Shown here: positions 843 through 14,699 of the stretch, one piece after another
How positions within the stretch are numbered: position 1 is the stretch's first letter
Layout: each line of letters begins with the position of its first letter
From: a virus
Lineage: Duplodnaviria > Heunggongvirae > Uroviricota > Caudoviricetes
Reading direction: 5' to 3' (one strand)
DNA length: 14,699 bases
Virus record (IMG/VR): IMGVR_UViG_2850796239_000003
Coordinates: 1 to 14,699 of that record
The notes under the pieces: model-generated
Database searches by the model: none
The model's input: the letters and a program-made list of their open reading frames with translations, nothing else
Told to the model about the DNA's origin: nothing
Program-made: the position numbers and the translations under genes

Positions 843-979
843 ATCACTACCTCCAAAGCATGAGTGAGATGACAACGTAACATTGATTGGAGATTAACAA
901 TAGATTGCTGATGTAAAAGATATGTATAAGCTTCGCTTTCAAAGTGGAGGATCTGATAGCGGCATCTAGGCTGTGTCCC

Positions 980-1495
980 TTAATTACGTAAGCGTTGATA
1001 AAAGAGTCGGATGCAGCCCAGTTTCACCATCGCCAGGTAATTTCTCGCCGTTTTGTCGTAACGCGTGGCGATGCGGCGATATTCTTTCAGCCGCCCAAAG
1101 CACCGTTCAACGACATTACGATTGCGGTACGCATCACGATCAAGCTGTGCACGTCCATCCGATGCCATTTTCTCATTTGACTTTCGGGGGATTACTGCCT
1201 TTATACCGTTATTTTTCAGCTCGTTGCGCAATGCGCGCCCTGAATACGCTTTATCAGCCAGTACCGCATGTCCACGGCGTTTCATGCTGCCGTTCTGACG
1301 CTGAACGCCAATCCCGTCCAGAAGTCGTTGCGCGAACTGGCTTTCATGAGCTTGTCCGGGGCTTAGCACGATATTTAACGGGAGGCCACTTCCGTCTGTT
1401 GCCAGATGGATTTTGGTGCCAAAACCGCCGCGAGAGCGACCCAGCCCATTATCTCCGTCGATATCGGGATGTTTTTTTGAGCACCGGCGGCACAT
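980..1495 (-). CDS. IS5-family transposase orfB (DDE catalytic part, -1 frame relative to orfA)
   Basis: Contains GLGRSRGGFGTKIHLATDG, LADKAYSG and the Y-x2-R-x3-E-x6-K signature (DAYRNRNVVERCFGRLK). Overlaps orfA by about 120 nt across an A-run. Confidence 0.85.
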   Translation of the reverse strand: MCRRCSKKHPDIDGDNGLGRSRGGFGTKIHLATDGSGLPLNIVLSPGQAHESQFAQRLLDGIGVQRQNGSMKRRGHAVLADKAYSGRALRNELKNNGIKAVIPRKSNEKMASDGRAQLDRDAYRNRNVVERCFGRLKEYRRIATRYDKTARNYLAMVKLGCIRLFYQRLRN

Positions 1496-1824
1496 TTCAG
1501 CGCCCGGATATTACTGCCATCCAGCGCGGTGGCAGACCAGTCAATAAAGCCGTTTGCATCAAGTAGCGAAAGCAACCTGTTGAAAATAATATTAATCACG
1601 CCTGACTTTGACCATCGGTTAAAGCGGTTATAAACAGTTTTCCATGACCCATATCGTTCGGGTAAATCGCGCCATGGTGCACCGGAACATAACACCCAGA
1701 ACATGCCATTGATGATTTTACGGTGCTCAGCCCATGGGCGTCCGGCCCGTGGTGTGGCGGGTTCAGGAGGTAACAGGGGCTTGATGATGGTCCATGCCTC
1801 ATCGGGAAGGTCGTAGCGAGCCAT
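1375..1824 (-). CDS. IS5-family transposase orfA (149 aa, N-terminal DNA-binding part)
   Basis: MARYDLPDEAWTIIKPLLP...GRPWAEHRKIINGMFWVLCSGAPWRDLPERYGSWKTVYNRFNRW, the conserved N-terminal module of IS5/IS427-type transposases. Confidence 0.85.
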   Translation of the reverse strand: MARYDLPDEAWTIIKPLLPPEPATPRAGRPWAEHRKIINGMFWVLCSGAPWRDLPERYGSWKTVYNRFNRWSKSGVINIIFNRLLSLLDANGFIDWSATALDGSNIRALKCAAGAQKNIPISTEIMGWVALAAVLAPKSIWQQTEVASR

Positions 1825-1884
1825 AGTTCAATATGTTGTGTAAACAGACAGTTACTATAGCTCAGATGATTAAGGGACACAGCC

Positions 1885-2901
1885 TACATCACTGTTGTTG
1901 TTGAATATCAGCAACTGGAGGAAGCGATCAAGCTTAACCAACTGGAAGAAATTCTCGCGCCGGTTCGCCAGCGAATCGTTACCGACCTTGAAACAGAGCT
2001 TGCTCACTTCATGATGAATAACGGTGCGTTGTCACTTGGTAGCCCCAATACTCCAATCACCAAATGGTCTGATGTTGCGCAGACGGCATCTTTCCTGAAA
2101 GACCTCGGCGTTAATGAAGGTGAAAACTATGCTGTAATGGATCCATGGTCTGCACAGCGACTTGCTGATGCGCAGACTGGTTTGCACGCTTCAGATCAAT
2201 TGGTTCGTACTGCATGGGAGAATGCACAGATCCCAACCAATTTTGGCGGCATTCGCGCACTGATGTCTAATGGGCTTGCCTCTCGTACGCAGGGGGCATT
2301 TGGCGGAACACTGACAGTCAAAACACAGCCAACTGTTACCTATAACGCAGTTAAAGACTCATACCAGTTCACTGTAACATTGACCGGAGCGACAGCCAGC
2401 GTTACAGGTTTTCTGAAAGCTGGTGATCAGGTTAAATTCACCAATACCTACTGGCTGCAACAGCAGACCAAACAGGCGTTGTATAACGGAGCCACACCAA
2501 TTAGCTTCACTGCAACGGTTACTGCTGATGCTAATTCAGACAGCAGTGGCAATGTGACGGTTACGCTTTCTGGTGTTCCGATTTATGACACTACAAACCC
2601 GCAGTACAACTCTGTAAGTCGTCAGGTAGCGGCAAACGATGCCGTATCTGTAGTAGGCACTGCTAGCCAGACAATGAAGCCAAACCTGTTCTATAACAAG
2701 TTCTTCTGTGGACTTGGCTCTATCCCACTGCCGAAACTGCACAGTATTGATTCTGCTGTTGCAACATATGAAGGTTTCTCCATCCGCGTACATAAATACG
2801 CAGATGGCGATGCCAACGTGCAAAAAATGCGCTTTGACTTACTGCCTGCATATGTGTGCTTTAACCCTCACATGGGCGGTCAGTTCTTCGGTAATCCGTA
2901 A
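1885..2901 (+). pseudogene. Major capsid (coat) protein of a P22-like phage, 5'-truncated at the IS boundary (about 338 C-terminal codons)
   Basis: The reading frame is open from the first base after IS copy 1 to TAA at 2899-2901, with no plausible start or RBS at the 5' end. It lies immediately upstream of clear gp4 and gp10 homologs, the coat position in P22-like late operons, and shows loose local similarity to P22 coat. No N-terminal coat sequence exists left of the IS. Confidence 0.65.
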
Positions 2902-6318: not shown

Positions 6319-6856
6319 ATGTTATATGCATTTAAGCTGGGCAGAAAACTGCGCGGCGAGGAACCTTATTGCCCTGAAAAAGGCGGGAAAGGTGGCTCCG
6401 ATAAAAGCGCAAAGTATGCAGCAGAAGCTCAGAAGTATGCCGCAGACCTGCAAAATCAGCAGTGGCAGACGATCATGAAAAACCTTGCTCCGTTCACGCC
6501 TCTTGCGGAGCAGTATGTTAACCAGCTTCAGAACCTTTCCAGTTTAGAAGGTCAGGGGCAGGCACTTAATCAGTATTACAACTCTCAGCAGTATAAAGAC
6601 CTTGCAGGTCAGGCTCGTTACCAGAGTCTTGCTGCTGCGGAGGCGACGGGTGGACTTGGTTCGACAGCCACAAGCAATCAACTGGCTACGATCGCGCCTA
6701 CTCTCGGTCAGTCTTGGTTATCAAACCAGATGAGCAATTACAACAATCTGGCAAACGTTGGGCTTGGTGCACTTCAAGGTCAGGCAAACGCCGGGCAGAC
6801 GTACGCCAACAACATGAGCAGCATTGCACAGCAAAGCGCAGCTCTTGCCGCTGCTA
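6319..6856 (+). pseudogene. Ejection protein, P22 gp7-like, 5' fragment interrupted by IS copy 2
   Basis: ORF starts at ATG 6319 and runs into the IS, where the frame terminates artificially (...ARLCPLII*). Q/N/A-rich ejection-protein-like composition. Position matches gene 7. Confidence 0.7.
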
Positions 6857-6872
6857 GGCTGTGTCCCTTAAT
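6857..6872. repeat. Left terminal inverted repeat of IS copy 2
   Basis: GGCTGTGTCCCTTAAT, a perfect reverse complement of 7757-7772. Confidence 0.85.
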
Positions 6873-6916
6873 CATCTGAGCTATAGTAACTGTCTGTTTA
6901 CACAACATATTGAACT

Positions 6917-7366
6917 ATGGCTCGCTACGACCTTCCCGATGAGGCATGGACCATCATCAAGCCCCTGTTACCTCCTGAACCCGCCACACCACGGGCCGGA
7001 CGCCCATGGGCTGAGCACCGTAAAATCATCAATGGCATGTTCTGGGTGTTATGTTCCGGTGCACCATGGCGCGATTTACCCGAACGATATGGGTCATGGA
7101 AAACTGTTTATAACCGCTTTAACCGATGGTCAAAGTCAGGCGTGATTAATATTATTTTCAACAGGTTGCTTTCGCTACTTGATGCAAACGGCTTTATTGA
7201 CTGGTCTGCCACCGCGCTGGATGGCAGTAATATCCGGGCGCTGAAATGTGCCGCCGGTGCTCAAAAAAACATCCCGATATCGACGGAGATAATGGGCTGG
7301 GTCGCTCTCGCGGCGGTTTTGGCACCAAAATCCATCTGGCAACAGACGGAAGTGGCCTCCCGTTAA
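6917..7366 (+). CDS. IS5-family transposase orfA (149 aa)
   Basis: Identical translation to copy 1 orfA. Confidence 0.85.
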   Translation: MARYDLPDEAWTIIKPLLPPEPATPRAGRPWAEHRKIINGMFWVLCSGAPWRDLPERYGSWKTVYNRFNRWSKSGVINIIFNRLLSLLDANGFIDWSATALDGSNIRALKCAAGAQKNIPISTEIMGWVALAAVLAPKSIWQQTEVASR

Positions 7367-7761
7367 ATATCGTGCTAAGCCCCGGACAAGCTCATGAAAG
7401 CCAGTTCGCGCAACGACTTCTGGACGGGATTGGCGTTCAGCGTCAGAACGGCAGCATGAAACGCCGTGGACATGCGGTACTGGCTGATAAAGCGTATTCA
7501 GGGTGCGCATTGCGCAACGAGCTGAAAAATAACGGTATAAAGGCAGTAATCCCCCGAAAGTCAAATGAGAAAATGGCATCGGATGGACGTGCACAGCTTG
7601 ATCGTGATGCGTACTGCAATCGTAATGTCGTTGAACGGTGCTTTGGGCGGCTGAAAGAATATCGCCGCATCGCCACGCGTTACGACAAAACGGCGAGAAA
7701 TTACCTGGCGATGGTGAAACTGGGCTGCATCCGACTCTTTTATCAACGCTTACGTAATTAA
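7246..7761 (+). CDS. IS5-family transposase orfB (DDE domain, -1 frame)
   Basis: As copy 1 orfB, with two Arg to Cys differences (TGC at 7504-7506 and 7615-7617 where copy 1 has CGC). Confidence 0.85.
   Translation: MCRRCSKKHPDIDGDNGLGRSRGGFGTKIHLATDGSGLPLNIVLSPGQAHESQFAQRLLDGIGVQRQNGSMKRRGHAVLADKAYSGCALRNELKNNGIKAVIPRKSNEKMASDGRAQLDRDAYCNRNVVERCFGRLKEYRRIATRYDKTARNYLAMVKLGCIRLFYQRLRN
7264..7270 (+). other. Candidate -1 programmed frameshift heptamer A AAA AAC joining orfA to orfB
   Basis: In the orfA frame the codons are caA AAA AAc. A -1 slip enters the orfB frame (..SKKHPDID..). The same motif occurs in copy 1 at 1471-1477 as a reverse complement. Confidence 0.5.
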
Positions 7762-7772
7762 GGGACACAGCC
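7757..7772. repeat. Right terminal inverted repeat of IS copy 2
   Basis: ATTAAGGGACACAGCC, a perfect reverse complement of 6857-6872. Confidence 0.85.
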
Positions 7773-7774
7773 TA

Positions 7775-7935: not shown

Positions 7936-9402
7936 ATGGCTACTTGGCAAGGATCAAATGGCGGATTGTTGGCTGGTATCGGCGGCGTCAACTCAAACGC
8001 TCCGAGCGTAAATGACATCGGCAATACGCTTCAGCTTATCAGGCAGAACAATGATATTGAGCGTTCAGGCGCTAACAATGTTGGGCTGACTGCTTTGCAA
8101 GGCCTTTCAGGTATTGCGGGGGTGTTTCAGCAGGAAAAGCAGGCTCAGCGGCAGAAAGAATTTCAGCAGGCATACGCTAATGCTTATGCGTCTGGTGATC
8201 GCGGTGCTTTGCGTCAGTTGGCTACTCAATATCCAGACCAGATTGAATCCGTTCGTAAAGGCATGGGATTCATTGATGAAGATCAGCGTAATTCTATCGG
8301 CACCTTAGCGGCTGGCGCACGCCTTGCGTCATCGTCTCCAGAAGCAATGCAATCATGGCTGCAAAACAACGCCAAGGAACTGACTCGCGTCGGTGTTGAC
8401 CCTAACAGCGTTGCTCAGATGTATCAGCAGAACCCTTCAGGATTTGGTGAGTTTGTTGATCACCTTGGAATGGCTGCTCTTGGTCCGATTGATTACTTCA
8501 ATGTTCAGGACAAGATGGCTGGTCGTGAGATTGACCGAGGCAGACTGGCAGAGACAATCCGCAGCAATCAGGCTGGAGAAGCACTTCAGGCGAGAGGGCA
8601 GGATATTAGCCGAGCAAATGCGTTAACGTCAGCATATGCACCAACAGCCGCAATGCAGAATTACAATCAGTACGCGCAAATGTTAAAGGCGGATCCAGAT
8701 GGTGCAGCGGCATTTGCGGCAGCGGCGGGAATTAATCCCAATGCTAAGAAATTACTTAAGGTTGAAACCAATCCTGATGGCTCGGTAACTAAGTATTACA
8801 CCGATGGCAGCGAGGAAGCCGGAAAACTAAACCAACCTATATCTGGTGATGGCATTAAACCAATTAGCTTGCCACAAGCGCAAAGCATCATAGATAAGGC
8901 TAATGAGGGTTCCAAGAAGGCGGCAGGATTTGCTTTGCGATTAAAAGATTCAATGGACTCAATGAATCAGCTTAGTAAAAGCATTGACCCTAAGCGAGTT
9001 GCATTAATAAATCGCTCTCTTGGTGATGGGACTATTGCAAATTTAAGCCTATCACCAGCGGAGCAGCAATATATGGTAAATGCGAGAGACGCCTTGTATG
9101 CAATTTTGCGCCCAGAAACAGGTGCAGCAATTACTCTGCCAGAGATGCAGGAGTATTCCAAAATGTACCTGCCTCAGCCCGGTGATTCCAAGGCTGCTAC
9201 TGAAACAAAAATGCGAAAAATGCAGGGCCAATATAACTCATTACGTGGTCAGTCTGGTCGCGTTTATGATGCTTTGGTGGTTTCAAGTGCTGCAAATAGT
9301 CAACAACAGAGCAATAGCCAACAACCGGCAAATACCCAACAGCAGCAGAGTCAATCCGGATCATATACCTCAAAATCAGGCATTCAATTTACGGTGGAAT
9401 GA
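7936..9402 (+). CDS. Ejection (internal virion) protein, P22 gp20-like (488 aa), by synteny and size
   Basis: ATG at 7936 preceded by AAGGGG. Gly/Ala/Gln-rich. Q/S-rich low-complexity C-terminal tail. Stop overlaps the next start (ATGA). Confidence 0.7.
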
Positions 9403-11246
9403 TGAAAGTAACTGCAAACGGTAAGACATTTACCTTCCCTGATGGTACGAGCATGGAAGATATTGGCACCGCCATTGATGAGTATTTTGCTGGTCAGGCT
9501 GTTCAGCAACAAACAGTTAATCAGGCCAATAATGAACCAGCACGTGAAGAACCATCATTGATGCAACAAGCTGGCGATTGGCTCACAGGCGGGCAAAGTG
9601 CAGGGCAAATTGCAGAGCAGGCTGGTCGTGGTCTGGTAAACATACCATTTGACGTATTGCAGGGCGGCGCAAGTCTGATTAATGCAATCAGTCAGGGGCT
9701 TGGTGGACCCAAGGTTTTGGATGATGTTTATCGTCCAGTAGACAGACCGACAGACACCTACGCGCAAGCCGGTGAAACAATTGGTGGGTATTTAGTTCCA
9801 GGAGTTGGAACGGCAGGAAGCATGGCTATTGGATCACTGGCAGAGGCCGCAAATCAGAAAGGCGATTTCGCACAAAATGCAGCTAAAAATGCCGGAGTTA
9901 ACCTTGCCGCTCAGGGTGTTCTTTCCGCAGCAGCAAAGGGAATAGGGCGTGGAATAACGGCTATAAAAGGTGATATTGCGCCAGAAGTGGCGAAGAAAAT
10001 TGCCACATCAGAATCGATGGGCGTGACACCAATGACATCTGATGTTATCCCGCCGAAAAATGCTTTCACTCGCGGCCTTACTCAGGATGCCGAGGGGGCT
10101 TTGCTCGGGACAGGCTCAAAGCGAGCGGAGCAATATGCAACGCGTAGTAAGCTGGTAAGTAATTATTTTGACCGTTTTGGTGAGTACAACCCTGATGATG
10201 TGGTGAAATCTCTGACCACCACGTTAAGGGGGCGGAAGGATGCCGCTGGCGCTGTTATCAATGACGTCACCAATAAAATGGGTAATGCCGCAGTTGATAC
10301 CACAAATACCATGAATGCTCTGAATACAGCGATCGCAAGACAGGAACGGCTTGGGACGTCTGCCAATCAAAGCCTGCTTACATCCTTGCGTAACCTACGT
10401 GAAGAATTAGCAAACCCTGCAACTGATTTGGATGTTACGTTTGATCTCTTGCGTCAGCACAGAACAGCATTTAGATCTAATGTTCAGGGAGATGCTATGG
10501 TCTTCCCCAACCAGGCAAAAGCAGCTACCAATATGGTAGAGAATGCAATGTCAAAAGACCTTCGTAACGCAGTTGCTAAAAACCTCGGTGCATCAGACGC
10601 AGCAAAATACCTTAAAGCAAATTCCGATTATGCAAACGTTTATAATAAGGTGCTTAATAAAAACATTGCTAACAAGCTCAACAAGGCAAGCAGTGAAGCC
10701 AGTCCTGAACTTATAAATACCGTTGTATTAAGCAGAAAACCATCTGACGTGAAACGAATCTGGAGCGCACTGGATGATAAGGGGAAAGATGCTATGCGTG
10801 CAGCTTACGTCAGCAAAATAGCGGAAAAGGCCGGGGACTCTCCAGCCAAGTTCATCACTGAAGTTAATAAGCTGAAATCTCAGTCAGGCGGTGAAATTTA
10901 CAACACTATTTTTTCTGGAAAGCACATGAAAGAGCTTGATGCTCTTCATGAAGTTCTACAGCAAACAGCAAGGTCAGACACCGCAAATGTAGTAACTCAG
11001 ACGGGGCAATCGCAAGCCAACAGGATAAGGACGATTGGCGCAACTGCGACCCTTGGCGTATCAATGGGGCTTGAGGCTGGTTTTGGTGCAATGATGCGCT
11101 TGTATGAGTCCAAAGCAGCAAGGAATGCTCTCTTACGTCTGGCAAACACTAAAACTGGAACGCCAGCTTATGAAAGAGCGCTAAATAATGCTGCAAATGC
11201 GATACGCCCTATACTTTCAAGCCAAATTACAGCAGAACAGCAATAA
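9399..11246 (+). CDS. Ejection (internal virion) protein, P22 gp16-like (615 aa), by synteny and size
   Basis: Last gene of the plus-strand late block. The length is close to the ~609 aa I recall for P22 gp16. N-terminus [16 protein letters not shown]. Confidence 0.7.
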
Positions 11247-11260
11247 AAGATAAGATATAA

Positions 11261-11554
11261 CTACCTGATATTACTGCTACTGTTGCATGTTACCGTGTTT
11301 CCAAATCCTGAATTGCAGTTTGTATATGTGTCAACGCGTGTTGGGTAAGGTTGAGTTATAACAGGCTGGCGCGCTTTTTGCTCGATCGCTTGCATTGTGT
11401 TTACAGCCTGGTAATTCAATAAAGCCTGCTGGAATGCTTGGCTTTGTGCTATTTGTTGGGCTTGTTCTTGGCTTTGTAATTGAACATAAAGATTCTGAAG
11501 CTCAAGTCTTGCCTTCATCGACACCTTGCCCGAGCATCTTTGCAGCAAGGACAT
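11261..11554 (-). CDS. Hypothetical Q-rich protein (97 aa; possibly the frameshifted 3' part of the lipoprotein gene)
   Basis: ORF in a different frame, overlapping the lipoprotein ORF by 53 nt. No good RBS at the first ATG; an internal ATG at 11518 has AAGGTG only 3 nt upstream. Gln-rich helical segment and Cys/Asn-rich C-terminus. Confidence 0.3.
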   Translation of the reverse strand: MSLLQRCSGKVSMKARLELQNLYVQLQSQEQAQQIAQSQAFQQALLNYQAVNTMQAIEQKARQPVITQPYPTRVDTYTNCNSGFGNTVTCNSSSNIR

Positions 11555-11726
11555 ACAGCTTAGGTGTTGGTGCTGATGCCATGCGTGAGTCGTTCTTCAC
11601 ACTGGCATCAAGGCAATTAGCCATATCGCTAAGCTTTTGATAGCGTTGTTCGCAACTTGCTTGATAGTCACTTACTTTTGCGCATCCAACCAGCAGAAGC
11701 GGGATAATTAACAGTGATTTTTTCAT
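11502..11726 (-). CDS. Small lipoprotein (74 aa) at the sieA-equivalent position
   Basis: Signal peptide with lipobox MKKSLLIIPLLLVGC and Cys at +1. AGGAG upstream of the ATG at 11726. Lies between gp16-like and mnt, where P22 carries sieA. Confidence 0.55.
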   Translation of the reverse strand: MKKSLLIIPLLLVGCAKVSDYQASCEQRYQKLSDMANCLDASVKNDSRMASAPTPKLYVLAAKMLGQGVDEGKT

Positions 11727-11796
11727 ATGGTTAACTCTCCTTAGTTTTTCACAGGATATCATGAAGGCAATGCCATTTTAGCCGGAAACTAGATTT

Positions 11797-12063
11797 CTAT
11801 GTTTCCTTTTTATTATTGCTATACATGGTCTTAAGCGTTTCAAAAACCATTTTCTTAACCATATCAGATTGTTGTTCTGCCATACGCTCTGCATCGTCAA
11901 TGTAAACTGATGCAGAGCTTTGTTTATCCAATGATTCCTCAATCGCTGCAATTATCTCTGAGTTCAGCGATCTGTTATTCATCTTCGCACGCTGTTTAAT
12001 TTTCGCGTGGAGTTCATGCGGAAGTATCAAGTGAAACTGCGCCTCGTCGTATTTGCTGTACAT
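11797..12063 (-). CDS. mnt: Mnt-like ribbon-helix-helix repressor (immI region), 88 aa
   Basis: Translation aligns with recalled P22 Mnt (window NNRSLNSEII...DDAERMAEQQSDMVKKMVFETLKTMY versus P22 NGRSMNSELL...NDAERLADEQSELVKKMVFDTLKDLY). Start at ATG 12063 is preferred; the alternative ATG at 12096 would give 99 aa. Confidence 0.8.
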   Translation of the reverse strand: MYSKYDEAQFHLILPHELHAKIKQRAKMNNRSLNSEIIAAIEESLDKQSSASVYIDDAERMAEQQSDMVKKMVFETLKTMYSNNKKET

Positions 12064-12134
12064 CCTTGATGCCTCACCAGTTGGGTGGAATGGCATCGTA
12101 ACCTACTGGATAAATACTCAATAGTACCATTTCG

Positions 12135-12139
12135 GTATG
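12135..12139. repeat. IS2 target-site duplication (GTATG), left copy
   Basis: The same 5-mer occurs at 13471-13475, directly abutting both IS2 termini. Confidence 0.85.
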
Positions 12140-12150
12140 TGGATTTGCCC

Positions 12151-13056
12151 CTATATTTCCAGACATCTGTTATCACTTAACCCATTACAAGCCCGCTGCC
12201 GCAGATATTCCCGTGGCGAGCGATAACCCAGCGCACTATGCGGATGCCATTCGTTATAATGCTCGAACGCCTCTGCAAGGTTCTTTGCTGCCGTTAACCC
12301 GTCTGGTTTGGGCATGATACTGATGTAGTCACGCTTTATCGTTTTCACGAAGCTCTCTGCTATTCCGTTACTCTCCGGACTCCGCACCGCCGTGTTCTTC
12401 GGTTCAAGTCCCAACATCCGGGCGAACTGGCGTGTTTCATTAGCCCGGTAGCATGAACCATTATCCGTCAGCCACTCCACTGGAGACGACGGAAGATCGT
12501 TGCCGAAGCGGCGTTCCACCGCTCCCAGCATGACGTCCTGTACTGTTTCACTGTTGAAGCCGCCGGTAGTCACCGCCCAGTGCAGTGCCTCACGATCACA
12601 GCAGTCCAGCGCGAACGTGACACGCAGTCTCTCTCCGTTATCACAGCAGAACTCGAACCCGTCAGAGCACCATCGCTGATTGCTTTCTTTCACGGCCACT
12701 CTGCCTGTATGTGCCCGTTTCGATGGCGGTACAGCAGGTTTTCGCTCAAGCAACAGCGCATTCTGGCGCATGATCCGGTAAACACGTTTGGCATTGATCG
12801 CAGGCATACCATCAAGTTCTGCCTGTCTGCGAAGCAGCGCCCATACCCGACGATAACCATACGTGGGCAGCTCTCCGATAACATGGTGTATACGGAGAAG
12901 CACATCCGTATCATCAGTGTGACGACTGCGGCGGCCATCCATCCAGTCATCGGTTCGTCTGAGAATGACGTGCAACTGCGCACGCGACACCCGGAGACAA
13001 CGGCTGACTAAGCTTACTCCCCATCCCCGGGCAATAAGGGCGCGTGCGCTATCCAC
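12151..13056 (-). CDS. insD: IS2 transposase OrfB (InsD), 301 aa
   Basis: Translation [28 protein letters not shown]... with an IS3-family DDE integrase core. Overlaps insC in the -1 frame. Confidence 0.9.
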
Positions 13057-13379
13057 TTTTTTGCCCGTCCATATTCAACGGCTTCTTTGAGGAGTTCATT
13101 TTCCATCGTTTTCTTGCCGAGCAGGCGCTGGAGTTCTTTAATCTGCTTCATGGCGGCAGCAAGTTCAGAGGCAGGAACAACCTGTTCTCCGGCGGCCACA
13201 GCAGTAAGACTTCCTTCCTGGTATTGCTTACGCCAGAGAAATAACTGGCTGGCTGCTACACCATGTTGCCGGGCAACGAGGGAGACCGTCATCCCCGGTT
13301 CAAAGCTCTGCTGAACAATTGCGATCTTTTCCTGTGTGGTACGCCGTCTGCGTTTCTCCGGCCCTAAGACATCAATCAT
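13014..13379 (-). CDS. insC: IS2 transposase OrfA (InsC), 121 aa
   Basis: [41 protein letters not shown]..., a helix-turn-helix protein. Start taken at the internal ATG at 13379 rather than the 136-aa ORF-track start. Confidence 0.9.
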
Positions 13380-13470
13380 CTGTACTCCAATGACTAGTCT
13401 AAAAACTAGTATTAAGACTATCACTTATTTAAGTGATACTGGTTGTCTGGAGATTCAGGGGGCCAGTCTA

Positions 13471-13475
13471 GTATG
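13471..13475. repeat. IS2 target-site duplication (GTATG), right copy
   Basis: Identical to 12135-12139. Confidence 0.85.
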
Positions 13476-13520
13476 CAATCACATCATGGTTGCATCATAT
13501 CATTCGTCTGGAGCAATGAA

Positions 13521-14676
13521 ATGTCAGATATCACCGCAAATGTTGTGGTAAGCATGCCTTCGCAACTCTTCACTATGGCTCGTTCTTTTAAAGCGGTTGC
13601 CAATGGCAAAATTTATATCGGTAAAATTGACACGGATCCGGTAAATCCTGAAAACCAGATTCAGGTTTATTTAGAGAACGAAGACGGCTCTTACGTTCCT
13701 GTTTCACAACCAATCATCATTAACGCTGCTGGTTACCCTGTATATAACGGACAGATTGCCAAATTCGTTACCGTGCAAGGCCATTCTATGGCTGTTTATG
13801 ATGCGTACGGTGCGCAGCAGTTTTATTTTCCGAATGTGCTGAAGTACGACCCGGATCAGCTTGAGAAAAGATTGTCGTTAAACACGGGAGCTTCCCTGAT
13901 TGGTACATATTCAGGAGCATCGATTCAGTCGGAGATTGACTGTATTAATGAAAGCATTGAAATTATCAATAATGACGAACTTCCAAATCTATCGCTAGGG
14001 GTGGCATCATCTATAAAAACATCGGTCCAAATAATTGATGAAATTAAAGATCCATCTATTTCTTATGATGCATTTGGTAACTCCGTGTTCTACAATGGCC
14101 GCAATTTATTTTGCTTCAGGAGATCACCTGAGCATGTTGATACTTATACAGGCATGCACAGTGTGTGCATAGCAGAAATACTCAACAATGGAGCTTGTAA
14201 AATAATATGGGAATATACTGATAATACTGGCAATGCACCTAAAGATCCTACATTATCAGTCAGTAACCCAGGTAATACACTAATTATTTCTTTTCAGATT
14301 CATAATGTTTCATCTGATACATATACTTCTGGTATTATTGGATATCCTGATTTGTCAAATACTGGTAAGTTTTTATCAAGTTCTGAACTTACCACGGATC
14401 ATAACGTTTTTTTATGGGGTAATGTACTGCAAACTCCATCTGGAAATTTTATAACATCCAGATATAAAATTGATGGCACTGGTGTAGAGATAATTTCTTC
14501 ATCTGATACAAATTTAAACGAAAATACAACATGGTCTATAGTTAGTACACTTTCTGTTGGTTCGTTCCAGACAAGAACATCAGTTAATGAATGCAGTCTT
14601 TCATATTATAGAAATCAACTAGTTGCAATAGTCAGAACTCAGTCAGGCTCTTCTTTGGGTGGTTTTGGATATGCTA
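13521..14676 (+). pseudogene. Tailspike: P22 gp9-type head-binding N-terminal domain fused to a divergent AT-rich receptor-binding domain, 3'-truncated by IS copy 3
   Basis: ATG at 13521 with GGAG 7 nt upstream. The first ~110 residues ([50 protein letters not shown]...[12 protein letters not shown]...NVLKYDPDQ) match the recalled P22 tailspike head-binding domain; the rest is unrelated and visibly AT-rich. The frame runs into the IS at 14677, leaving about 385 codons. Confidence 0.85.
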
Positions 14677-14699
14677 GGCTGTGTCCCTTAATCATCTGA
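14677..14699 (+). mobile_element. IS5-family IS (same element), copy 3, left end only (cut by the window edge)
   Basis: GGCTGTGTCCCTTAATCATCTGA is identical to the first 23 nt of copy 2 and is preceded by TA at 14675-14676. Confidence 0.8.

What the first reader, a model, noticed from the sequence alone, without database searches (positions are those of the whole stretch)
11261..11726. Lipoprotein locus at the superinfection-exclusion (sieA) position, possibly a frameshifted single gene
Between the last ejection gene and mnt, where P22 carries sieA, there is a small minus-strand lipoprotein followed by an overlapping Q-rich ORF in another frame. Together they could be one lipoprotein of about 165 aa broken by a frameshift near 11510-11555, or two overlapping moron genes. 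Prophage lipoproteins at such positions often block phage entry (Cor, Llp and similar). I do not recognise this one.
Basis: inference. Interest (0 to 1): 0.5.

Follow-up and report, generated by a model that had tools for sequence, protein, structure and literature searches.

The report
Broken prophage lipoprotein gene (20-bp deletion)
The two overlapping small reading frames are the halves of one conserved 161-residue prophage lipoprotein gene of unknown function, inactivated in this Shigella boydii prophage remnant by a 20-base deletion between two 8-base repeats, so here it is an ordinary pseudogene.

Summary
Intact relatives in E. coli, phage Gally, Proteus phage Brookers and 80 of 80 viral contigs carry one 161-codon ORF in the same slot: mnt, then the lipoprotein gene, facing gene 16. 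The window lacks 20 bp lying between two copies of AGGCAAGA, and one copy remains at 11507-11514. This cuts the lipoprotein after residue 73 and puts residues 79-161 out of frame. The deleted allele is real. It occurs in two S. boydii assemblies and three independent read sets, but in none of 5,426 complete E. coli genomes. The surrounding P22-like prophage is decayed, with IS2 and two other IS copies. The intact family (phrog_6067) has no Pfam, NCBIfam, PADLOC, PDB or BFVD relative. It is under purifying selection (pN/pS 0.12), has a lipobox with Ala at +2, and is transcribed from the Gally prophage. It was never found together with sieA. It sits after a repressor gene in two unrelated phage types. 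Its function is untested; envelope-level superinfection exclusion is the best guess, at about 0.35-0.4. The pseudogene itself is ordinary.

The parts
11502..11726 (-). 5' fragment of the lipoprotein gene. It encodes the signal peptide with lipobox LVGC (Cys15) and native residues 1-73, then Thr and a premature TGA at 11502-11504. The predicted product is a 74-aa prolipoprotein.
   Evidence: The identical 74-aa product is EFW55276.1 / WP_000749293.1, named 'putative lipoprotein [Shigella boydii ATCC 9905]'.
11261..11512 (-). 3' fragment of the same gene, now out of frame. It holds native codons 79-161 plus the stop: the rest of the long helix, the Q-rich stretch, and the conserved C-terminal TNCxxxFGNTVTC hairpin. 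The mechanical ORF 11261-11554 only extends this frame upstream to a chance ATG that has no Shine-Dalgarno sequence.
   Evidence: pN/pS for this half in intact alleles is 0.04.
11507..11514 (-). Deletion junction: the single retained copy of the 8-bp direct repeat AGGCAAGA. Intact alleles read GATGA-AGGCAAGA-TAAGTGACGCAC-AGGCAAGA-CTTGAG. The window has lost one repeat copy plus the 12-bp spacer, 20 bp in all (codons 72/73 to 78/79, GKISDAQ).
   Evidence: Alignment A1; allele survey.
11737..11742 (-). Shine-Dalgarno sequence AAGGAG, 10 nt upstream of the conserved ATG. SD and ATG are conserved in phage Gally although the sequence further upstream diverges.
11797..12096 (-). mnt-type (Arc/Mnt family) repressor gene. 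It lies upstream of the lipoprotein gene and points the same way.
   Evidence: Pfam PF03869 E 1.4e-12 and PF11423 E 3.9e-12. The same arrangement is seen in the relatives.
9399..11246 (+). Gene 16-type DNA ejection protein gene, convergent with the lipoprotein gene. It is the downstream boundary of the slot.
   Evidence: PF26808 Phage_P22_gp16 on the identical product in L004; annotated 'DNA transfer protein' in relatives.
12140..13470 (-). IS2 (1331 bp, 5-bp target duplication) inserted in the mnt-tailspike intergenic region. This is context showing prophage decay; it may also cut the mnt/lipoprotein unit off from upstream signals.

Best explanation
SHOWN. The locus is one gene, not two. It is a pseudogene of a conserved 161-residue lipoprotein gene of P22-like (Lederbergvirus) prophages (PHROG phrog_6067; RefSeq WP_000749290/291, 'hypothetical protein').

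In the Shigella boydii lineage of this window, a 20-bp deletion removed one copy of an 8-bp direct repeat (AGGCAAGA) and the 12 bp between the copies. This is the signature of replication slippage or microhomology-mediated deletion. Translation now stops after residue 73 plus one foreign residue, and codons 79-161 are out of frame. The lost and shifted part includes invariant residues D76, A79, R80, L83, Q84, Y87 and C154, and the helix that completes the confidently modelled N-terminal helical domain. The product is therefore very probably non-functional. The lesion is one of several in a decaying, IS-riddled prophage.

INFERRED (ancestral function).
- The intact protein is exported and lipidated at Cys15. 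Because it has Ala at +2 and no Asp, it should be sent to the outer membrane, facing the periplasm.
- It is transcribed from the prophage in lysogens, behind the mnt repressor gene.
- It occupies the slot that other P22-like prophages give to sieA.
- My best guess, at probability about 0.35-0.4, is that it acts at the envelope to exclude superinfecting phages. It could do so by masking a secondary outer-membrane receptor or by disturbing the periplasmic ejection-protein conduit.
For: - Single intact ORF in all relatives: E. coli LR-28 and O26:H11 11368, phage Gally; 94 homologues, nearly all 153-162 aa, across Enterobacterales; 80 of 80 IMG/VR contigs plus Tatumella and Providencia; Proteus phage Brookers.
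- 20-bp gap flanked by the AGGCAAGA repeat.
- The deleted allele is real: the identical 74-aa product occurs in CP026875.1 (100% identical to the window over 11,198 bp), in AERN01000049 and in three Logan read-set assemblies.
- The junction 36-mer is absent from 5,426 complete E. coli genomes and from GTDB species representatives.
- Purifying selection acts on both halves in the single frame: pN/pS 0.14 (N-terminal half), 0.04 (C-terminal half), 0.12 overall, with no internal stops.
- Invariant residues are lost.
- AF2 model: residues 18-95 form a helical bundle with pLDDT 80-88, and a helix starts at residue 76.
- Prophage decay: IS2 and two ~0.92-kb IS copies, which abut the 5'-truncated coat gene and cut the 3' end of gene 7.
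- For the inferred function:
  - lipobox present;
  - the Gally orthologue LF82_138 is transcribed in the lysogen at about 70 normalised counts against a prophage median of 15.6, and rises by log2FC 2.55 in macrophages (PMC9928086 S1/S4 tables);
  - sieA sits in the same slot in E. coli P13-6;
  - no SieA homologue or SieA motif occurs in any lipoprotein-bearing locus;
  - a distant member overlaps the stop of a CI-like repressor gene in an unrelated phage;
  - another distant member is cargo of a P4-like satellite;
  - there is precedent for exclusion lipoproteins inside structural gene clusters (PMC11893012).
Against: Against the pseudogene call: nothing substantial. A 59-residue mature lipopeptide could still be made, and a residual activity cannot be excluded.

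Against the exclusion function:
- No homology or fold similarity to any known exclusion protein.
- The lipoprotein stays 97-100% identical while the neighbouring gp16, gp20, gp7 and needle types vary widely. There is therefore no co-variation pointing to a phage partner.
- Distant relatives also occur in apparently ordinary chromosomal contexts, judged from recognisable N-terminal sequences: next to an RND efflux operon, gltX, or a thioredoxin-like gene.
- Macrophage induction of the Gally copy fits a host-fitness role equally well.
- The sieA exclusivity sample is phylogenetically non-independent.
Confidence: 0.85

Rival explanations
1. Two separate, overlapping functional moron genes: a 74-aa lipoprotein and a 97-aa Q-rich cytoplasmic protein.
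For: Both ORFs are open in the window.
Against: - No relative has this arrangement; all have one 153-162-codon ORF.
- The second ORF's ATG has no Shine-Dalgarno sequence, and its first 14 codons are out-of-frame lipoprotein sequence.
- The 97-aa product is not in a collection of 15 billion proteins.
- The split is explained exactly by a 20-bp deletion.
Confidence: 0.02
2. Sequencing or assembly artefact: the gene is really intact in the organism.
For: Short indels are common assembly errors.
Against: A 20-bp loss is not a homopolymer-type error. The identical allele appears in a complete genome, a draft genome and three independently assembled read sets.
Confidence: 0.02
3. The pseudogene call stands, but the ancestral protein is a host-fitness or virulence lipoprotein in the manner of Bor/Iss or TraT (envelope robustness, serum or macrophage survival) rather than a phage-exclusion factor.
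For: - The Gally orthologue is induced about 6-fold in macrophages and is expressed in the lysogen.
- The gene is common in pathogenic E. coli such as O26:H11.
- Distant relatives occur in non-phage chromosomal settings.
Against: - No similarity to Bor/Iss or TraT.
- The whole right end of Gally, including mnt and the tailspike gene, is induced together, so the induction is regional.
- The gene sits at a sie slot and behind repressor genes in two phage types.
- Deleting the whole Gally prophage did not change macrophage survival (PMC9928086).
Confidence: 0.25
4. The pseudogene call stands, but the ancestral protein serves the phage's own lytic cycle, for example an envelope or lysis accessory factor or a virion or ejection helper.
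For: It lies next to the ejection genes.
Against: - It is transcribed opposite to the late operon and is expressed in the lysogen when late genes are silent.
- It is absent from P22, Sf6, HK620 and CUS-3; only 5 of 50,697 phage records carry it. It is therefore dispensable for the P22-like life cycle.
Confidence: 0.05

Closest known systems
phrog_6067 / RefSeq WP_000749290 and WP_000749291 ('hypothetical protein'; 'putative lipoprotein' in Proteus phage Brookers gp14)
   Same: The reconstructed window protein matches this family end to end (E 1.6e-110, 161/161 positions). It has the same slot, orientation and lipobox.
   Different: The window copy is broken by a 20-bp deletion. The family itself has no assigned function.
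P22 SieA (superinfection exclusion protein A)
   Same: Same genomic slot (between gene 16 and mnt/gene 9), same orientation, and expression from the prophage. The two were never found together in the loci examined (PMC10883804).
   Different: SieA is a polytopic inner-membrane protein with the motif FxRYPxEAxxFNK. This protein is a lipoprotein with a cleavable signal peptide, no other hydrophobic segment and no such motif. There is no sequence similarity.
Cor (phi80/N15/HK022) and Llp (T5) receptor-blocking lipoproteins; Lpp021/Lpp010 of mEpimmI phages
   Same: These are small prophage- or phage-encoded lipoproteins, some placed among structural genes, that act at the outer membrane to exclude phages (PMC11893012).
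   Different: No homology. The only Cor hit (phrog_1119, E 0.035) covers residues 1-31, which is the signal peptide. This protein is twice as long, and no receptor is known for it.
Ltp of Streptococcus thermophilus phage TP-J34 (from my own knowledge, not tested here)
   Same: A helical lipoprotein encoded next to the prophage repressor that blocks DNA injection from outside the cytoplasmic membrane. This is the closest mechanistic analogue to the ejection-conduit version of the hypothesis.
   Different: It comes from a Gram-positive host, and no similarity was detected in the PDB sequence or fold searches.
Lambda Bor / Iss
   Same: A prophage-expressed outer-membrane lipoprotein moron.
   Different: No Pfam hit to the Bor family, and the size and architecture differ.

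Membership tests
phrog_6067 lipoprotein family of P22-like prophages | Full-length sequence match to the family profile | tested here: met
   The reconstructed 161-aa sequence scores E 1.6e-110 over 1-161/161. It is 99% identical to P0001, a cluster of 871 member sequences.
phrog_6067 lipoprotein family of P22-like prophages | One uninterrupted ORF of about 153-162 codons | tested here: not met
   The window has a 20-bp deletion, which gives a 74-aa product and leaves the 3' part out of frame. The window copy is therefore a pseudogene member.
phrog_6067 lipoprotein family of P22-like prophages | Position between the mnt-type repressor gene and the gene 16-type ejection gene, convergent with gene 16 | tested here: met
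Bacterial lipoprotein (Lgt/Lsp substrate) | Basic n-region, hydrophobic h-region, and lipobox [LVI][ASTVI][GAS]C | tested here: met
   MKK-SLLIIPLL-LVGC, lipobox at residues 12-15. Cys15 is invariant in 38 homologues. Actual lipidation and outer-membrane sorting (Ala at +2) cannot be tested here.
Direct-repeat (slippage / microhomology) deletion pseudogene | The intact allele has two copies of a short repeat bracketing the missing segment, and the mutant keeps exactly one copy | tested here: met
   AGGCAAGA occurs twice, 20 bp apart, in the intact alleles, and one copy is left in the window.
Programmed ribosomal frameshift gene | The two-frame arrangement and a slippery site are conserved in homologues | tested here: not met
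   All homologues are single-frame.
SieA | Polytopic inner-membrane protein with the motif FxRYPxEAxxFNK | tested here: not met
   The motif and tblastn searches were positive only in the control locus L098. The definition is taken from PMC10883804.
Cor / Llp exclusion lipoproteins | Sequence homology beyond the signal peptide | tested here: not met
   phrog_1119 E 0.035, residues 1-31 only. No Pfam hit.
Cor / Llp exclusion lipoproteins | Blocks infection by phages that use a given outer-membrane receptor | not testable with these tools
   This needs expression and plating assays.
Known anti-phage defence systems (PADLOC) | Match to a PADLOC model | tested here: not met
   No hit for P0001 or for three distant relatives.

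The most novel reading that the evidence does not exclude
The intact family (phrog_6067) may be a previously unrecognised class of superinfection-exclusion protein. On this reading it is an outer-membrane-anchored, periplasm-facing helical lipoprotein that P22-like prophages carry instead of the inner-membrane SieA, and that other temperate elements place directly behind their repressor gene. It would block entry from the outer-membrane side, either by masking a secondary receptor such as OmpA or OmpC or by disturbing assembly of the gp7/gp20/gp16 conduit. The S. boydii copy would then be a decayed example.
Probability: 0.3. Interest if true: 0.55.

Novelty: new member of a known kind. Interest (0 to 1): 0.3.

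Why it matters
For this window it matters little. The finding corrects the annotation from two 'genes' to one pseudogene and adds one more lesion to a decaying Shigella prophage.

The family behind it is more useful. It is a widespread lipoprotein under purifying selection, transcribed from the prophage in the one lysogen with data (Gally in LF82), with no known relatives. It occupies the sieA slot in about 190 of 5,426 complete E. coli genomes, including O26:H11 EHEC and AIEC LF82. It is a cheap, well-defined candidate for an exclusion assay, and S. boydii offers a natural null allele.

Tried and rejected
- **Pfam, NCBIfam, PADLOC:** scans of the intact protein and of distant relatives gave nothing above noise.
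- **Rfam and signal scans around the locus:** no RNA family, no terminator, and no convincing promoter.
- **Coiled coil:** heptad periodicity of residues 76-125 is no better than in shuffled sequences, so there is no support for a canonical coiled coil despite the long Q-rich helix.
- **Co-variation with gp16, gp20, gp7 or the needle knob:** none. The lipoprotein is nearly invariant across at least four gp16 types.
- **Literature search by accession, locus tag and PHROG id:** no paper found.
- **Related-locus scans with the distant-subfamily alignments:** The scans that did run gave a small, mixed set of contexts.
- **Readings rejected:** two functional overlapping genes, programmed frameshifting, and assembly error. 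See the rival explanations.

Full report
**1. What is in the sequence**

On the minus strand, ORF 11502-11762 contains a conserved ATG at 11726-11724. AAGGAG lies 10 nt upstream of it. The ORF encodes MKKSLLIIPLLLVGCAKVSD...GQGVDEGKT*. The lipobox L-V-G-C is at residues 12-15.

ORF 11261-11554 overlaps it by 53 nt in another frame. It encodes a Gln-rich sequence that ends ...TNCNSGFGNTVTCNSSSNIR*.

A gene 16-family ejection gene lies at 9399-11246 (+). An Mnt/Arc-family repressor gene lies at 11797-12096 (-).

**2. One gene or two**

A megablast of 11200-11800 found about 190 complete E. coli genomes and three phages in which the matching stretch is 621 bp rather than 601 bp. Three cases were examined: E. 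coli LR-28, E. coli O26:H11 11368 and phage Gally. In each the region is annotated as one CDS. It is 486 nt (161 aa; WP_000749291 and WP_000749290) in the two E. coli genomes. In Gally it is annotated as 516 nt, from an upstream ATG, and encodes the same 161 residues from MKK onward.

The alignment shows that the window lacks exactly 20 bp. Intact alleles read GATGA-AGGCAAGA-TAAGTGACGCAC-AGGCAAGA-CTTGAG. The window reads GATGA-AGGCAAGA-CTTGAG. One copy of an 8-bp direct repeat and the 12-bp spacer are gone, which is the classic footprint of slippage or microhomology-mediated deletion. The retained copy is at 11507-11514.

Apart from the deletion, the window differs from the LR-28 allele by a single synonymous base. 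The inactivation is therefore recent.

**3. Is the deletion real, and how common is it**

The exact 74-aa truncated product is on record from five sources:
- CP026875.1 (5.16 Mb);
- AERN01000049;
- three independently assembled read sets (SRR8186612, DRR015921, SRR1811688).

The window is 100% identical to CP026875.1 over 11,198 bp. The sources name the product 'putative lipoprotein [Shigella boydii ATCC 9905]' (EFW55276.1 / WP_000749293.1).

A 36-mer spanning the junction is absent from all 5,426 complete E. coli genomes and from the GTDB species representatives. This looks like a genuine allele confined to one S. boydii lineage, not an artefact and not a recurrent event.

**4. Is the single ORF ancestral and functional elsewhere**

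- A search of 5.8 billion proteins returned 94 homologues. They come from E. coli, Citrobacter, Serratia, Cronobacter, Klebsiella, Yersinia, Pectobacterium, Morganella, Providencia and Tatumella. Nearly all are 153-162 aa.
- Eighty of the 80 IMG/VR contigs returned (125 matched), and species representatives of Tatumella and Providencia, carry an uninterrupted ORF. So does Proteus phage Brookers, where gp14 is annotated 'putative lipoprotein'.
- In 38 diverse members the invariant residues include C15, C25, C38, K56, Y58, G72, D76, A79, R80, L83, Q84, Y87 and C154. The deletion falls in the most conserved block.
- Among distinct intact alleles pN/pS is 0.12 overall: 0.14 for codons 1-71 and 0.04 for codons 79-161. 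None has an internal stop.
- Both halves are therefore coding in one frame, and the window copy is a pseudogene.

**5. State of the surrounding prophage**

The window is the virion-assembly and ejection end of a P22-like prophage. It carries a coat gene, gp4, gp10, an Sf6-type needle, DUF2824, gp7, gp20, gp16, mnt and a tailspike gene. It is damaged in several places:
- Two copies of a ~0.92-kb IS lie at about 961-1889 and 6852-7774. The first abuts the 5'-truncated coat gene; the second cuts the 3' end of gene 7.
- IS2 (1331 bp, 5-bp target duplication) sits at 12140-13470, between mnt and the tailspike gene.
- In CP026875.1 the tailspike gene is also cut by an IS.

The lipoprotein frameshift is one lesion among many.

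**6. What the intact protein is**

No known family or fold matches it:
- It has no Pfam, NCBIfam or PADLOC match, and its only PHROG is phrog_6067, 'unknown function'.
- The weak Cor hit covers only the signal peptide.
- A profile search of 1.84 billion representatives found 247 relatives. Many are lipoproteins of 125-135 aa. They share the N-terminal domain and the C-terminal motif T-x-C-x(3)-G-x(3-4)-C-x(2-3)-[YR].

What can be said about its structure and sorting:
- AlphaFold2 with 38 sequences gives a confident helical bundle for residues 18-95 (pLDDT 80-88). A long helix runs from residue 76 to 125. The Gln-rich part and the C-terminal hairpin are modelled with low confidence.
- The heptad pattern of residues 76-125 is no better than chance.
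- From general knowledge of Lol sorting, Ala at +2 predicts outer-membrane anchoring. This was not tested.

**7. Clues to function**

(a) *Expression.* In the LF82 lysogen, the Gally orthologue (LF82_138 / GALLYPH_13) is transcribed at about 70 normalised counts. The prophage median is 15.6. It rises by log2FC 2.55 (q 4.7e-27) inside macrophages, together with the other right-end genes (PMC9928086, tables S1 and S4).

(b) *Position.* The slot and orientation are those of P22 sieA. E. coli P13-6 carries sieA there. No lipoprotein-bearing locus contains a SieA homologue or the SieA motif FxRYPxEAxxFNK.

(c) *Linkage to repressors.* In the P22-likes the gene follows mnt. In an unrelated viral contig (L105), a distant member (phrog_6067, E 2.8e-17) overlaps the stop codon of a CI-like repressor gene that is divergent from the replication genes. 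Another distant member is cargo of a P4-like satellite, which reads int, alpA, primase, AAA_25, lipoprotein, T5orf172.

(d) *Precedent.* Prophage lipoproteins inside structural clusters can exclude phages that use OmpA or LamB (PMC11893012).

Three points count against the exclusion reading:
- The lipoprotein is 97-100% identical next to at least four gp16 types and with both knobbed and knobless needles, so it does not co-vary with any phage partner.
- Some environmental relatives sit in contexts that look like ordinary chromosome.
- The macrophage induction fits a Bor-like fitness role equally well.

I put envelope-level superinfection exclusion at about 0.35-0.4, a host-fitness lipoprotein at about 0.25, and something else for the remainder.

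**8. Comparison with known systems, and verdict**

It works like, or may work like, Cor, Llp, the mEpimmI Lpp proteins, Ltp or SieA, but it is not a member of any of those families. Sequence, motif and architecture tests were all negative. It is a broken member of an already catalogued but uncharacterised family.

The functional suggestion is plausible but unproven. For the window itself this is an ordinary pseudogene in a decaying prophage. The family deserves a simple exclusion experiment.

Noticed in passing
window 11502-11520; L009:5001-5420; protein P0251: Three independent broken alleles of this gene all break at codons 69-73. The first is the S. boydii 20-bp deletion. The second is a ~5-kb deletion that fuses nt 213 of the gene to gene 7, with about 4 nt of overlap at the junction (products P0081/P0082, in remnant prophages L009-L012). 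The third is an E. albertii 73-aa product ending ...GQGV|VNDG* (WP_241216674.1). This may be chance or a fragile spot.
   Followed up: partly
window 12140-13470: A complete IS2 (1331 bp, 5-bp target duplication) is inserted in the ~120-bp intergenic region between mnt and the divergent tailspike gene. It lies about 70 bp upstream of the annotated mnt start and could uncouple mnt and the lipoprotein gene, or the tailspike gene, from their promoters.
   Followed up: partly
window 961-1889 and 6852-7774: Two ~0.92-kb copies of one IS (transposase with PF01609 DDE_Tnp_1) lie in inverted orientation. The first sits just upstream of the coat gene remnant (only P22 coat positions 124-423 remain). The second cuts the 3' end of gene 7 (profile positions 1-180 of 230 remain). 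The segment between them could have been inverted or could be mobilised as a composite element.
   Followed up: no
window 11797-12139 and 13471-14699; L001, L002: This prophage type has mnt but no arc or ant between mnt and the tailspike gene; mnt is directly divergent from the tailspike gene. It is unclear what Mnt represses here. In LF82, deleting the Gally mnt had no survival phenotype (PMC9928086).
   Followed up: no
L013-L092 (IMG/VR loci): The lipoprotein gene is a nearly invariant mosaic module (97-100% aa identity). It is joined to gp16 genes 32%, 34%, 42%, about 70% or 99% identical to the window's, to varied gp20 and gp7, to needles with or without the Sf6-type knob, and to Mnt genes of about 98%, about 56% or no detectable identity.
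   Followed up: partly
L105:5609-6354; L100:5497-6030: Distant family members lie outside P22-like phages. One is translationally coupled to a CI-like repressor gene (ATGA overlap) in an unrelated temperate phage contig. Another sits in the cargo region of a P4-like satellite, with a T5orf172/MUG113 gene a few hundred bp downstream.
   Followed up: partly
L098:4742-6035 (E. coli O141:H4 P13-6): In the same slot this prophage carries sieA plus a 193-aa hypothetical gene, and its gene 16 is cut by IS2. IS2 has therefore hit this prophage region independently in another strain.
   Followed up: no
L114/L117:4974-5360 and neighbours: Environmental relatives (about 40% identity to the distant subfamily) lie convergent with what look like an outer-membrane factor gene and an RND pump gene. 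They were recognised only from their N-terminal sequences and were not scanned against any library. This hints that the ancestral domain may be a general envelope lipoprotein.
   Followed up: no
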